Part shown: positions 7,853-31,279 of the stretch, piece by piece | Layout: every line of letters begins with the position of its first letter | Numbering within the stretch: the first letter of the stretch is position 1 | Assembly (NCBI GenBank): GCA_951406725.2 | Contig: OX597820.1 | Span: forward strand, 98,766,001 to 98,830,000 | DNA: 64,000 nt | Reading direction: 5' to 3' | Source: Octopus vulgaris | Taxonomy: Eukaryota | Position numbers and translations under genes: made by a program | Notes under the pieces: generated by a model | The model's database searches: none | The model's input: the letters and a program-made list of their open reading frames with translations, nothing else | What the model was told of the DNA's origin: nothing

Positions 7853-7883
7853 TAATCAAAATAAGCAACAAGAATGACTCCGG

Positions 7884-7976
7884 TAATTTGGTACGATCGT
7901 TTCGTACTACATCATTCTATTAAATGTTGTAAGTATTACAACAGATTTAAGATGCTGAGTACTCATCAGCCAATTA
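7884..7976 (-). ncRNA. Type I hammerhead ribozyme with long stem II
   Basis: aattgg-CTGATGA-gtact[long hairpin incl. tgttgtaa/ttacaaca]agtac-GAAAC-gatc-GTA-ccaaatt; core intact and loop III palindromic. Confidence 0.8.
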
Positions 7977-8062
7977 TAGAGGTTTTCCATTATTACAAAA
8001 ATTTTGAAATCAAGTGGCAACATTATAGAGAAGGTAGATATACAGACAAAATATATATATAC

Positions 8063-8659: not shown

Positions 8660-9033
8660 TACTCTTTTACTTGTTTCAGTCATTTGACTGCGGCCATGCT
8701 GGAGCACTGCCTTTAGTCGAGCAAGTCTAGTACTTATTCTATCGGTCTCTTTTTTCCCGAACCGCTAAGTTACGGGGACGTAAACACACCAGCAACGGTT
8801 GTCAAGCGATGTTGGTGGGGAGGGGGGCGGGAACAAACACAGACACACAAACATATACACACACATATACATATACATATATACGACGGGCTTCTTTTTC
8901 AGTTTCCGTCTACCAAATCCACTAATAAGGCTTTGGTCGGCCTGGGGCTACAGTAGAAGGTCCCACGCAGTGGGATTGAACCGGGAACCATGTGGCTGGT
9001 AAGCAAGCTACTTACCACACAGCCACTCCTGCG

Positions 9034-9035
<2 letters not shown>
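8660..9035 (-). mobile_element. SINE family B, near full length
   Basis: Reverse complement of aggcgcaggagtggctgtgtggtaagtagcttgc..internal (TA)/(TG) tract..gactgaaacaagtaaaagag. Confidence 0.9.
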
Positions 9036-9083
<48 letters not shown>

Positions 9084-9096
9084 TACATACATACAA

Positions 9097-9132
<36 letters not shown>

Positions 9133-9384
9133 ACGTACGTATATGCACACACACACACGTACGTATATGCACACAAACAATATATCTTTGTGTGTGTGTC
9201 TGCATAGTTATACTTTACGTACAGAGACAGAAAGATTTTTTTAAATAATGCTTAATTGACAGAGGTTGGATAAGTTGTACAGAAAGTATAAGGTTCAGGT
9301 TTTTTGGTAGAATCTAGGTAAAAGTGTTGTGCGCAATCTTACGCCCGCACTAAGTTTATATCGGTCTTTATCGAAGATGATGGC

Positions 9385-9900
9385 GACGACGAGGGGAGGC
9401 GGTGGTGGTGGTGGTGGTGGTGACGGCGGCGGCGGCGCAGGCGGTGGCGAGGGTGGTGACGACGGCGACTGTAACAGCAGCGACGACGAAGACCACCACC
9501 ACCACCGCCGCCACCACAGCCACAACCACCACCACCACCACCACCGCCACCACCGCCACAACCACCACCACCACCACCACCACCGCCACAACCACCACCA
9601 CCACCACCACCACCTCCGCCACAACCACCACCACCACCACCGCCACAACCACCAACACCACCACCGCCACCACCACCGCCACAACCCCCACCACCACCAC
9701 CACCAAAACCACCACCCCCGCCACAACCACCACCACCAACCCGCCACAACCACCACCACCACCACCACCACCACCACCACCACCGCCACAACCACCACCA
9801 CCACCGCCACAACCACCACCGCCACAACCACCACCACCACCACCACCACCGCCACAACCACCGCCACCACCACCACCCCCACCACCACCACCACCACCAC
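9385..9900. repeat. (GGT)n then (CCA)n/(CCGCCACAA)n GC-rich trinucleotide array
   Basis: Directly visible; explains the poly-H/T/P/V/W/G ORFs in the track. Confidence 0.95.
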
Positions 9901-10213
9901 TATCAATATCAAAATGAATGCAACGCTGTAAATTATTACTTTTGACTGGTCACTGATATCATCCAGGTAGAAGAAGCCCACCATAACAACTAACATGTTG
10001 ATAACAACTACAATAGCGGCCACAGCAACAGCACGACTTCACCACCACTACTACTACCGCTACCACAACAACCACCATCAAATACAACATCAACAAGACG
10101 AACAAGGAGGCTAACAATGGCAAACCACTAAATTAATCCCTACCACTGCTTATCTGACATGGTGACAGATATGTTATTAAAAGATCATTAGAAGAAATCT
10201 ATACTATTACTAT

Positions 10214-10248
<35 letters not shown>

Positions 10249-10349
10249 GGAATGGTGATGATATTTTTATTAACCTTATTAGCAAATCAGTTCCTAAATA
10301 TACATTTGCACTCACCCACAGACATATAAACATACATAAATGTATGCAT

Positions 10350-10768
10350 AGGCGCAGGAGTGGCTGTGTGGTAAGTAGCTTGCTAACCAACCACATGGTT
10401 CCGGGTTCAGTCCCACTGCGTGGCACCTTGGGCAAGTGTCTTCTGCTATAGCCTCGGGCCGACCAATGCCTTGTGAGTGGATTTGGTAGACGGAAACTGA
10501 AAGAAGCCCGTCGTATATATGTATATATATATATATGCGTGTGTGAGTTTGTGTGTCTGTGTTTGTCCCCCTAGCATTGCTTGACAACCGATGTTGGTGT
10601 GTTTATGTCCCCGTTGCTTAGCGGTTCGGCAAAAGAGACCGATGGAATAAGTACTGGGCTTACAAAAAGAATAAGTCCCGGGGTCGAGTTGCTCGACTAA
10701 AGGCGGTGCTCCAGCATGGCCGCAGTCAAATGACCGAAACAAGTAAAAGAATAAAAGAATAAAAGAAT
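10350..10768 (+). mobile_element. SINE family B, full length
   Basis: tRNA-like head (tggctgtgtggtaag / gggttcagtccc), CORE-like ccttgggcaagtgtcttc, internal microsatellite and (taaaagaa)n tail. Confidence 0.92.
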
Positions 10769-11082
10769 ATAATTTATGTAGGCAGTGGTGTGCAATGTTT
10801 TACCAAAAAGGCAAACTATAATTGTCATTAAATATCACTGTGTTACAAACACCTACATTGCTAGAAATAAGGGCTAAAACGCTCTGATACTGCAGTCACA
10901 GCACATAGTTGTATAGCTACTAATAGGAACCGTAATCTATATACTTATTGTCATTAAATGTGACTGAGTGTGCCGAAGCACCTATATAGCTAAAAATAAG
11001 ACTTGAAGATTCTTAATGCGGTAAGAAGAGAACAGTGTATATACACTGACAGGGGAGATAACCGCCCGACGACCGTCTCTAG

Positions 11083-11136
11083 AATCACTAGACTAGACTA
11101 GTTTCGCCTATTTCGTAGGCATCATCAGTAGCGACT
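11083..11136 (-). ncRNA. Minimal type I hammerhead ribozyme
   Basis: agtcgcta-CTGATGA-t-gccta(cgaaa)taggc-GAAA-cta(gtc)ta-GTC-tagtgatt: 8-bp stem I with two G-U pairs, 5-bp stem II, short stem III, GUC cleavage triplet. Confidence 0.85.
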
Positions 11137-11149
11137 ACTCAAATTGAAC

Positions 11150-11400
11150 AAACCTTGTTCACTGTGACTTTTGGCTGTTCTCCAAACTGAATGAGAAGGC
11201 AGAGGAGGTTGTGTCAAGGGTTCTGGACACTTCACATTGGAGGACTTCCATTGAGGCCTTCATGAAGTACCTGGAGCTCGACAACAAGTGCACTGAGGTC
11301 AGAGGATCCTTCCTTAAAGGAGTTTAGAGTTTTGTACATCTTTGAAATTATTAAATGCATTTTCTGAAAAAGTTTCAAAATTTCTGGAACGTACTTGGTA
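11150..11400 (+). mobile_element. Mariner transposase C-terminal relic
   Basis: Reads ..HCDFWLFSKL.. and ..NKCTEVRGSF.., matching the mariner DLAPCDFWLF and KCI.RG.Y motifs. Confidence 0.6.
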
Positions 11401-12886
11401 TATGTACATTTTCTCCTGTTTTTTAACTATTTAAATTCTTCCTCTGAGGAAGTAGCTGGTTTCAGTTAAAGATACAACGCTCCATCGTTGGAATACAGAT
11501 AATAAAAACAATCTTACATTTTAAAATTTCGAAGCAGTTGTCTATAGTTATCTTCTTTCAGAGATATTCACATCAGCACGGCAGTTGACCTGTAGAACGG
11601 TACATATCTTTTCTTCTTTGTCCTAAGCAAAGATATTCAGCCTGTCGTGTTTACAGTTGGCAGATGTTTTGATGGAAACGTTCCACCAATATTCCTTGTG
11701 TTGCTGTTTGTCTATGTATTCAATAATAGGGATTTCTCTATATCGACCTATAACCAGCAGATATCTATCAGTTACAGAGGAAGAGTCTAGTGGCTAAATA
11801 TGCATTTCTGTTTCTTAGAACGTCATCAATAGCAAGCATCCACTAGCAACTGCATGGTAAGACAAATTCAGTCTGCACTGATGTAGAAAAAAAGTGATCA
11901 TCAAATCACTGATGTTGCAATTAGCTGGCAGAGGATTAAACATTTTTATAAATGACTGAAACAGTATTAGTTCAAAATAGCATTCTGTATATTATACTTA
12001 ATGTACTTTTCCTGGGGAAAACCAGGAAACTACGGAGTTCATATCAAGAAAACATCTTGTACAGACGTATCATGCTAGAAACACAGAAATATATCAGTAG
12101 CAGACAAGATACTTTCTCGAGGCAAAGACTTCTGTTTCCAGGCTTTCTACAGCATATCTACGTTAAGTATAATATATAGAACCTTATTTCGAATTAATAT
12201 TGCTTCCGTCGGTAATAAAAAATAATAATATTTTAATAATCATTTTTATATTAATATCATACATACACACATACATACATACATACATACATACATATTT
12301 ACATACATATTTAAGTAAATATATGCATACATATTCATCTACTTCGTAGGATATTACGAAGAAAATCTATACTGAAATGCATCCATGCATTTTGAAGAGA
12401 GCTACATTAAACATAAAATTTTAACGAAACCACAGGAAATGCAACTCCTGAGCAATAATCCCACCAAATTTTCACTCATTGACCGAGATTGTTTAAGGCT
12501 AGTTCTTAGCCACACAAGAGTGCATAAAACGAAGCAAGTTAATAAACCTATGCTACTTGAAAGAACATAGTCTACGAATCGTGCACTAATTACAATCTCT
12601 CCACTGGTGGTCCAAAGAGACACATGTCCGTACACAAAGCCAAGTGAGGTGTCGTGAGTCTGTGCTACATTTAAGTGAGAAGTGACATTAATAACTGTAG
12701 TAAAAGCTTCAGTTGTTCAGCTGGGTCGAAACGCACGTTCAGTTCTCTGCATATTAAGGAGTAATGGTTATGTTGAACGTTGAGTTTACCATGACGTATA
12801 AATGTATGTATGTATGTATGTATGTATGTATGTATGTATGTATGTATGTATGTATGTATGTGTGTGTGTGTGTGTATGTAAGTTAT

Positions 12887-13440
12887 GTCAGGTCACTTTC
12901 GAGTGCTACTGGTAACATGTAACCTAGTACAACCTGATGCATGGTCGGGTCGTCGGCGACTAAACCGGCAACCCCACCAAGCTTGCTTGGTGAGGAGGGT
13001 GTTTATTGGACACCCTGCGGGAGGAAAAACAAAACCCGTCAAAGGGCGGAGGAACTCTTGAGAGTCAACAGCCATCCAATAAATGTCTTAAGGCTGTATC
13101 ATGCGCGGGGACATAGAAATAATCGGACTGAATACCCGATCGCGCGGTTAAACCATTGGGAGTGAAGGACTCCTAGCATTGTTAGGGCATCCTTCTAGGA
13201 GAAGGTAACTCAGGTAACTGGGATAACTCCGATATAAAAACCTGCGACTCAGTGGTTACCGATGATGTTGACTTGTTCTTCTTTTCGGATTATGGCTGCT
13301 GTTGCTTAGTGAGTGGGATTGACTCAGTGCACAGCCTTTCCTCACTTAAAAAAAATCTTCTTGTACAGGCATTGCACGATAACAACATTGATTAAGCTTC
13401 GTACAATGGTCATTCTCGATAACGATGGGGCAGCCACCGT
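12887..13440 (+). mobile_element. Non-autonomous RTE-derived element between (TGTA)n tracts
   Basis: GC-richer ~550 bp island carrying gggcatccttctaggagaaggtaactc, a motif typical of RTE 5' UTRs; no ORF. Confidence 0.55.
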
Positions 13441-13614
13441 GTATGTATGTATGTGTGTATGTATGTATGTATGTATGTATGTATGTACGTATGTATGTTT
13501 GAAGAGCTCTTAAATATATTAATTTGTCACTATTGGAGAACTGAGAAAGTACGCCAAGACTGGATTAGTTTCCTTGTTGAAATCTGGGCCAAAGTATATG
13601 TGGTAATTTTCGTG

Positions 13615-23975: not shown

Positions 23976-24212
23976 CAAAAAAATATATATATTAATGTAA
24001 ATAATCAAGACTTCTGACGAGGTGAAGACAGGAAAACAGCTCAGTGTTTAAATTTTGTCGAGGTATGTAAGGGCGACAACTCGGTTACAGCTCGATTAAA
24101 TGGAATTAAAACTACGTTCGGTTACAACTTCAGTTAAATAAAAATTAAAAATACGCTTGTTGTTTTCAATGGAGTCGGATATTAACTGACTTCTTCATTG
24201 GCCTCTATTTTC

Positions 24213-24256
24213 CTCGGCGTTAAGTTTCGGCCGTTGCTGACATCATCAGGCCGAAT
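24213..24256 (-). ncRNA. Degenerate hammerhead-like motif
   Basis: ttcggc-CTGATGA-t-gtc..ggc-c-GAAAC-ttaac-gccgag; stem I pairs but the NUH cleavage site is lost. Confidence 0.4.
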
Positions 24257-30846: not shown

Positions 30847-31279
30847 TGAAGGCTAGGTTTTAAGAACTGTTTATGCCACATTTCTGATTGTAACGCCTTT
30901 TGATTCCTCATGAGAATCTTCCCTTAACTTACTTAACTTTAAAAGTTGTATTCCCTAGAATGTTCTTTATAAATATAATAAAGTTCACGAAGAATGAAGT
31001 CATTTTACTATAAAATCGGAGGGCGTTACCTGAACATCTTACTGTTCTATTTCCTCTTGGCAAATTTAATAGTGACAAGGTCACAGTTCGCACGGCGATT
31101 TTGAAACCATATAATAAATAAATGCTGTAATTGAAGGTAACAGTCTTCGTATGATTTTGAATGGTTAATATGTGTTTTCGACGATGCAATCGTTTTAGTT
31201 TCAACAGGCGGTCCCAGATGAAAATCACTGGCCTGGCAAATACATCTCTGAAATTTATATTTCACTAACTAAAAATAAC

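What the first reader, a model, noticed from the sequence alone, without database searches (positions are those of the whole stretch)
11083..11136. Compact, apparently intact hammerhead ribozyme unrelated to the long-stem family
Seen on the minus strand: AGUCGCUA-CUGAUGA-U-GCCUA(CGAAA)UAGGC-GAAA-CUA(GUC)UA-GUC^UAGUGAUU. All core residues are present, with an 8-bp stem I, a 5-bp stem II and one extra U after A9, as in many Penelope-associated hammerheads. It is solitary, next to a ~125-bp-period diverged direct repeat (10820-11005) and a mariner relic. If the minus-strand candidate exons are real, it would lie sense in an intron and could cut the pre-mRNA (inference).
Basis: partly seen in the sequence, partly recalled or inferred. 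Interest (0 to 1): 0.75.

Follow-up and report, generated by a model that had tools for sequence, protein, structure and literature searches.

The report
Dead copy of ancient octopus retrozyme
This hammerhead motif is real, but it is a truncated fragment of an old, decayed repeat family with hundreds of copies, likely a self-cutting RNA parasite copied by Penelope-type jumping genes; this copy is predicted to cut poorly and appears broken in a related species, so it is ordinary.

Summary
The motif is real: a type I hammerhead at 11136-11083 (minus strand), beyond chance. It is not solitary. It lies in a 199-bp fragment (11143-10945) of a non-coding 342-bp unit with roughly 300 dispersed copies, all about 12-13% decayed. 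Copies form partial tandems, share a 3' end beside microsatellites and often carry inverted arms: a non-LTR retrozyme with a Penelope-type footprint. Helices covary among three sister lineages, so the ancestral ribozyme was genuine; only this subfamily has the extra U.

This copy shows no sign of function. It has lost the distal arm of stem I, its palindromic stem III likely needs a partner copy that it lacks, and the family's ribozymes decay as fast as their flanks. The orthologous copy in one related species is missing about 22 nt, inferred to span the cleavage site. Its near-perfect core fits chance among so many copies. The neighbouring '125-bp repeat' is an adjacent fragment of a sister retrozyme. 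No host exon was found. The scan has reported other, younger octopus retrozymes on other DNA; this family was not among its look-alikes. New member of a known kind; low interest.

The parts
11083..11136 (-). Type I hammerhead motif (stem I, core, extra U at 11121, stem II, GAAA, stem III, predicted cut between 11091 and 11090)
   Evidence: Sequence, descriptor scan, weak Rfam HH9 match
11092..11102 (-). Palindromic stem III; predicted not to form as a monomer hairpin but to pair with a second copy (-10.9 kcal/mol duplex)
11071..11078 (-). Orphan 3' strand of distal stem I; its 5' partner, present in family copies, is missing here
10945..11143 (-). 5'-truncated copy (unit positions 105-303 of 342) of retrozyme subfamily A
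10772..10937 (-). 3' fragment of sister retrozyme family C (about 357-bp unit), without its hammerhead; source of the '125-bp repeat'
   Evidence: 82% to the C majority sequence
11149..11411 (+). Truncated dispersed repeat, mariner-like by recalled motifs; its junction with the retrozyme copy marks the orthologous locus in other organisms

Best explanation
This is a 5'-truncated, likely inactive copy of an old 342-bp hammerhead repeat family, most likely a non-LTR retrozyme that was copied by Penelope-like retrotransposon enzymes. Shown: the unit, its dispersion, partial tandems, shared 3' end, inverted arms, two subfamilies plus a sister family, covarying helices, decay, and disruption of the orthologous copy in one related organism. 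Inferred cycle of the ancestral family: tandem copies were transcribed; two hammerheads paired through their palindromic stem III and cut at GUC; the unit RNA (circle or uncut multimer) was bound by a Penelope-type RT/GIY-YIG protein, which nicked TA-rich DNA and began reverse transcription at a fixed internal site about 200 nt 3' of the cut, stopping at random and often adding an inverted arm. This copy later lost (or never had) the part 5' of unit position 105 and decays neutrally; its clean core is the tail of a chance distribution.
For: Dispersed family: (each scored only 40 of 288, 472, 638 candidates); 14 exact matches to a 22-mer give about 300 copies at 13% decay (my estimate). Anatomy on 66 non-redundant of 105 loci: 35 of 87 segments end at unit phase 338-26; 53 of 87 are followed by a microsatellite versus 378 of 2640 control positions; 30 of 87 exceed one unit; inverted arms in 26 of 66 loci; 5' ends spread over all phases. 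Majority unit: 36.8% GC, longest open frame 37 aa, circular fold z=-8.3. Star-like tree of 72 copies, subfamilies of 37 and 35 at 100/99 support, median tip 0.12, this copy 0.098. No protection of ribozymes among copies not retrieved by the hammerhead query: 104/640 inside vs 444/3206 outside (A), 219/1628 vs 1004/7732 (B). Compensatory pairs: A vs B in distal stem I (6 C-G, 5 G-C of 14 rows); A vs C at 2 of 6 stem I and 2 of 5 stem II pairs, with a different palindromic stem III. Context folding: stem I 0.00-0.22 in five spans of 101-451 nt, stem III <=0.02. Orthologues: organism E carries a 22-nt gap in two studies, alignment stopping at 11104; organism C has 6 of its 11 differences in 11083-11174. 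The genome encodes intact 781-aa RT + GIY-YIG frames.
Against: This copy differs from the subfamily majority at only 1 of 54 ribozyme positions (a pairing-preserving G-U) against 20 of 148 outside (P about 0.0055 alone; expected about 0.8-1.6 such copies in 150-300, observed 2), and it is the only exact match to a 33-mer in the genome. Organisms B and D are identical here, though they are very close relatives. The isolated 54-69-nt motif does fold stem I (0.73-0.83). No autonomous partner was found: of 50 Penelope and long-stem loci only L127 holds a unit copy, lying outside that element. The offset between inverted arms is loose (14 of 36 pairs at 30-80 nt, range 11-200), not a sharp Penelope tail. 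The place of the gap in organism E is inferred from contig coordinates, not read as an alignment.
Confidence: 0.87

Rival explanations
1. The unit is only the pseudo-LTR of an extinct autonomous Penelope-like element; short copies are its 5'-truncated stumps and no independent retrozyme RNA existed.
For: Same insertion footprint as Penelope elements (PMC8557442 passages); extra base after A9 is typical of their hammerheads (PMC4209133); the long-stem family in this window is such an end (L114).
Against: What lies 5' of a unit is the end of the same unit, up to 2.1 units (L049, L020, L083, L105); no sequence link to 30 GIY-YIG loci except a neighbouring copy at L127. Only 30 of 150 listed GIY-YIG hits were fetched, and the 66 family loci were not scanned for RT remnants.
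Confidence: 0.08
2. This copy was co-opted by the host as an intronic or regulatory self-cleaving element, like the amniote RECK/HH9 hammerheads.
For: 1 of 54 differences inside vs 20 of 148 outside; identical in organisms B and D.
Against: Inferred loss of stem III and the cut site in organism E, excess of changes in organism C (6/92 vs 5/271, Fisher P 0.034), missing distal stem I, poor context folding, no host exon found.
Confidence: 0.04
3. Chance match to a hammerhead pattern.
For: Below Rfam gathering score; z 0.24 for the 81-nt fold.
Against: 0 of 300 simulated windows; covarying helices across three lineages.
Confidence: 0.01

Closest known systems
Metazoan non-LTR retrozymes (coral, Mytilus, axolotl; PMC7229834, read parts 2-3 of 6 and passages; vertebrate survey 10.64898/2026.07.22.740005, read parts 1-3 of 5)
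   Same: 150-450-bp non-coding, low-GC unit with one type I hammerhead, tandem and monomer copies, highly self-paired predicted circle, weak palindromic stem III as in the dimer-acting amphibian motifs.
   Different: Apparently extinct (no young copy seen), arrays of at most about 2 units in the loci examined, extra U in one subfamily; this copy is 0.58 of a unit; expression and cleavage untested.
Hammerheads and insertion structure of endonuclease-bearing Penelope-like elements (PMC4209133, parts 1-2 of 4; PMC8557442, passages; PMC11167929, abstract and passages)
   Same: Extra base between positions 9 and 10.1, palindromic stem III, (TA)n-type targets, inverted 5'-truncated arms, fixed internal 3' end.
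   Different: No reading frame; long stem I with a distal helix rather than the 4-5-bp stem I of minimal motifs; no sharp 30-40-bp tail shown; no sequence-linked autonomous partner found.
Domesticated intronic hammerheads of amniotes (RECK, Rfam Hammerhead_HH9; PMC6155905, passages)
   Same: Type I topology; weak HH9 model match (20.7 bits).
   Different: Not conserved across orthologues, truncated, no host gene shown.

Membership tests
Type I hammerhead ribozyme | Core CUGANGA, GAAA, UH with three helices | tested here: met
   covariation
Type I hammerhead ribozyme | Internally looped extension of stem I for loop 1-loop 2 contact | tested here: not met
   Present in the family majority sequence, cut off at 11143 in this copy; the contact itself was not tested
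Type I hammerhead ribozyme | Rfam gathering score | tested here: not met
   HH9 20.7 of 52 bits; sister copies 22.7 and 28.1 of 48.5 to Hammerhead_3
Type I hammerhead ribozyme | Self-cleavage | not testable with these tools
   Needs an assay
Non-LTR retrozyme | 150-450-bp tandem unit with one type I hammerhead | tested here: met
   342-bp unit, 30 of 87 segments longer than a unit; family level, this copy is partial
Non-LTR retrozyme | Non-coding, GC under 50%, strongly self-paired | tested here: met
   37 aa longest frame, 36.8% GC; z=-8.3 on the majority sequence
Non-LTR retrozyme | Two consecutive units with complete hammerheads (activity criterion of Li et al. 2026) | tested here: not met
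   This locus has one hammerhead
Non-LTR retrozyme | Expressed as linear and circular RNA | not testable with these tools
   Only contigs were available
Penelope-like element (autonomous) | RT + GIY-YIG frame flanked by the repeat | tested here: not met
   None at this locus; no link in 30 GIY-YIG loci
Penelope-like element (insertion footprint) | Fixed 3' end, microsatellite targets, inverted arms | tested here: met
Penelope-like element (insertion footprint) | 30-40-bp tail on one arm only | tested here: inconclusive
   14 of 36 arm pairs offset by 30-80 nt, range 11-200
Domesticated intronic hammerhead | Conserved above flanks in orthologues | tested here: not met
Domesticated intronic hammerhead | Sense in an intron of a host gene | tested here: inconclusive
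   No host domain in 90 of 229 candidate frames scanned; sequence beyond the window not examined

The most novel reading that the evidence does not exclude
After the family died, this one copy was kept by selection in the lineage of organisms A, B and D as a host self-cleaving element in a minus-strand transcript, working without its distal stem I: an invertebrate parallel to the domesticated intronic hammerheads of amniotes.
Probability: 0.04. Interest if true: 0.7.

Novelty: new member of a known kind. Interest (0 to 1): 0.2.

Why it matters
The single copy matters little. The family is a small natural experiment: three sister lineages keep one RNA scaffold and one 3' end while the hammerhead helices change compensatorily, stem III stays palindromic with a new sequence, and one lineage alone carries the extra U. 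This supports dimer cleavage and Penelope-type mobilisation of animal retrozymes, both already proposed in print, and gives matched constructs to test them. It is also a caution: with hundreds of decayed copies, one near-perfect hammerhead is expected by chance.

Tried and rejected
No RNA holder listed; one run guessed as RNA held one 204-nt paralogous contig at depth 2.6: no weight given. Rfam scans of the window and of 9000-13500 gave no hammerhead. My first majority sequence was contaminated by the unit's internal inverted repeat and was rebuilt. A pattern-based subfamily split misassigned about a dozen B copies; the tree split was used instead. The structure string was misregistered; one search replaces it. 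A wall of 5' ends at the cleavage site was looked for and not seen. The count of segments crossing the cut site (75 of 87) is inflated by the queries and is not used. L127 as autonomous partner: rejected, a separate inverted Penelope stump 130-170 bp away with unrelated ends. A candidate exon at 1454-1702 gave no usable Atlas hit. Luense et al. 2017 on dimer cleavage is not held; seen only as cited in PMC6765202 passages. Searches for a printed description of this family found none; supplements of the retrozyme papers, Repbase and Dfam were not seen and may list it.

Full report
Observation. The minus strand at 11136-11083 carries the motif as written. A descriptor scan recovers it with an 8-bp stem I, one extra U, a 5-bp stem II and a 4-bp stem III; a strict version finds 0 hits in 300 simulated windows and this one in the real window. 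Rfam gives nothing at gathering score and a sub-threshold Hammerhead_HH9 match on a 141-nt stretch (20.7 bits, E 0.0038).

It is a repeat copy. A search of the own genome returned 43 matches on many contigs from 40 scored of 288 candidates, at 76-92% identity apart from the window itself; two unit-length queries gave 58 and 60 matches from 472 and 638 candidates. A 22-mer over stem III has 14 exact matches, about 300 copies at 13% decay (my estimate). The copies define a 342-bp unit of 36.8% GC with no frame over 37 aa, whose majority sequence folds as a circle at z=-8.3, with the hammerhead at the tip of a long rod. The window holds unit positions 105-303 (11143-10945).

Anatomy of insertions. 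Of 105 loci fetched, 66 were non-redundant. Among 87 segments over 100 nt, 35 end at phase 338-26, 53 run into a microsatellite within 30 nt (background 378 of 2640), 30 exceed one unit (up to 2.1), and 26 of 66 loci have divergent inverted arms; 5' ends fall at all phases. These match the Penelope-like footprint described in PMC8557442 (passages). The arm offset is only loosely tail-like (14 of 36 pairs at 30-80 nt). Copies longer than a unit require a circular or an uncut multimeric template; PMC11167929 (abstract, passages) shows internal initiation on unprocessed RNA for one Penelope element, so a circle is not proven. The genome has intact 781-aa RT + GIY-YIG frames, but no sequence-linked partner appeared in 30 GIY-YIG and 20 long-stem loci.

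The ancestral ribozyme was real. A tree of 72 copies (6 of 78 short rows left out) splits into subfamilies A (37) and B (35) at 100/99, star-like, median tip 0.12. B lacks the extra U, has a longer loop II, and swaps one distal stem I pair (6 C-G vs 5 G-C in 14 rows; 88.5% of cells paired against 30-41% for slid controls). The fragment at 10937-10772 belongs to a sister family C of about 357 bp with the same scaffold, compensatory changes at 2 of 6 stem I and 2 of 5 stem II pairs, a different palindromic stem III and GUA at the cut. C also lacks the extra U, so it is likely derived in A. This fragment explains the '125-bp repeat'. An extra base at this place and a palindromic stem III acting in dimers are known (PMC4209133, parts 1-2; PMC7229834, parts 2-3).

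This copy looks dead. It stops at 11143 against a mariner-like relic whose upstream part is also missing, losing the 5' arm of distal stem I; such looped extensions are needed for monomer cleavage in amphibian motifs (PMC6155905, passages). Stem I is near 1.0 in the family context but 0.00-0.22 in five native spans of 101-451 nt; it reaches 0.73-0.83 only in the isolated 54-69 nt; stem III stays at or under 0.02, while two copies would pair at -10.9 kcal/mol. No second hammerhead of the family is in the window. Family ribozymes are not protected: 16.3% vs 13.8% (12 A copies) and 13.5% vs 13.0% (30 B copies) among copies not found by the hammerhead query; all 12 core positions survive in 12 of 37 and 9 of 35. 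Against this reading, the window copy has 1 of 54 changes inside and 20 of 148 outside (P about 0.0055); 0.8-1.6 such copies are expected among 150-300 and 2 were seen.

Orthologues. Contigs spanning the retrozyme-mariner junction exist in four other coded organisms. B (11079-11449) and D (11083-11176) are identical; C has 11 differences in 363 nt, 6 of them in 11083-11174; E, in two studies, has 27-29 differences and 22-23 gap letters, and its alignment stops at 11104. From the contig coordinates the 22-nt gap lies between 11103 and 11036 and most likely starts at 11103, removing stem III and the cut site (inference). The insertion predates these splits and was not kept intact.

Host gene. 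90 of 229 complex frames of the window were scanned with Pfam: RT, zf-RVT, Mos1 HTH and sub-threshold zinc fingers only. A long intron cannot be excluded.

Verdict. It works like, and at family level is, a non-LTR retrozyme with a Penelope footprint; expression and cleavage are untested. Searches found no paper on this family; supplements and repeat libraries were not seen. Earlier scan notes describe other, younger octopus retrozymes; none matched this sequence. New member of a known kind, interest 0.2.

Noticed in passing
window 7860-8010 (-): Long-stem hammerhead (59-nt stem II region, palindromic stem III) of a young family, 95-99% identical copies, 1569 candidates; found as an inverted pair beside a GIY-YIG frame in L114, so likely a Penelope element end.
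   Followed up: partly
window 62347 (+): Another long-stem hammerhead-like motif with palindromic stem III, different sequence.
   Followed up: no
window 10772-10937; L176-L229: Sister retrozyme family C, more abundant: a 22-mer of the shared scaffold has 534 exact matches; further variants in L179, L180, L192 have yet other stem II pairs.
   Followed up: partly
L156:2245-4590: Intact 781-aa RT + GIY-YIG frame, many copies of the same length: a young autonomous Penelope-like family.
   Followed up: partly
window 31095-31122 (-): Reads IWFQNRRA, like homeodomain helix 3 (recalled motif), but without a clear acceptor site or the usual continuation; no Pfam hit.
   Followed up: partly
window 24209-24249 (-): Degenerate hammerhead-like core that fails the helix test.
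   Followed up: no
run X12, contig 4: A paralogue in organism E identical to the window over 11083-11144, paired with an inverted arm: clean copies occur in other species too.
   Followed up: no
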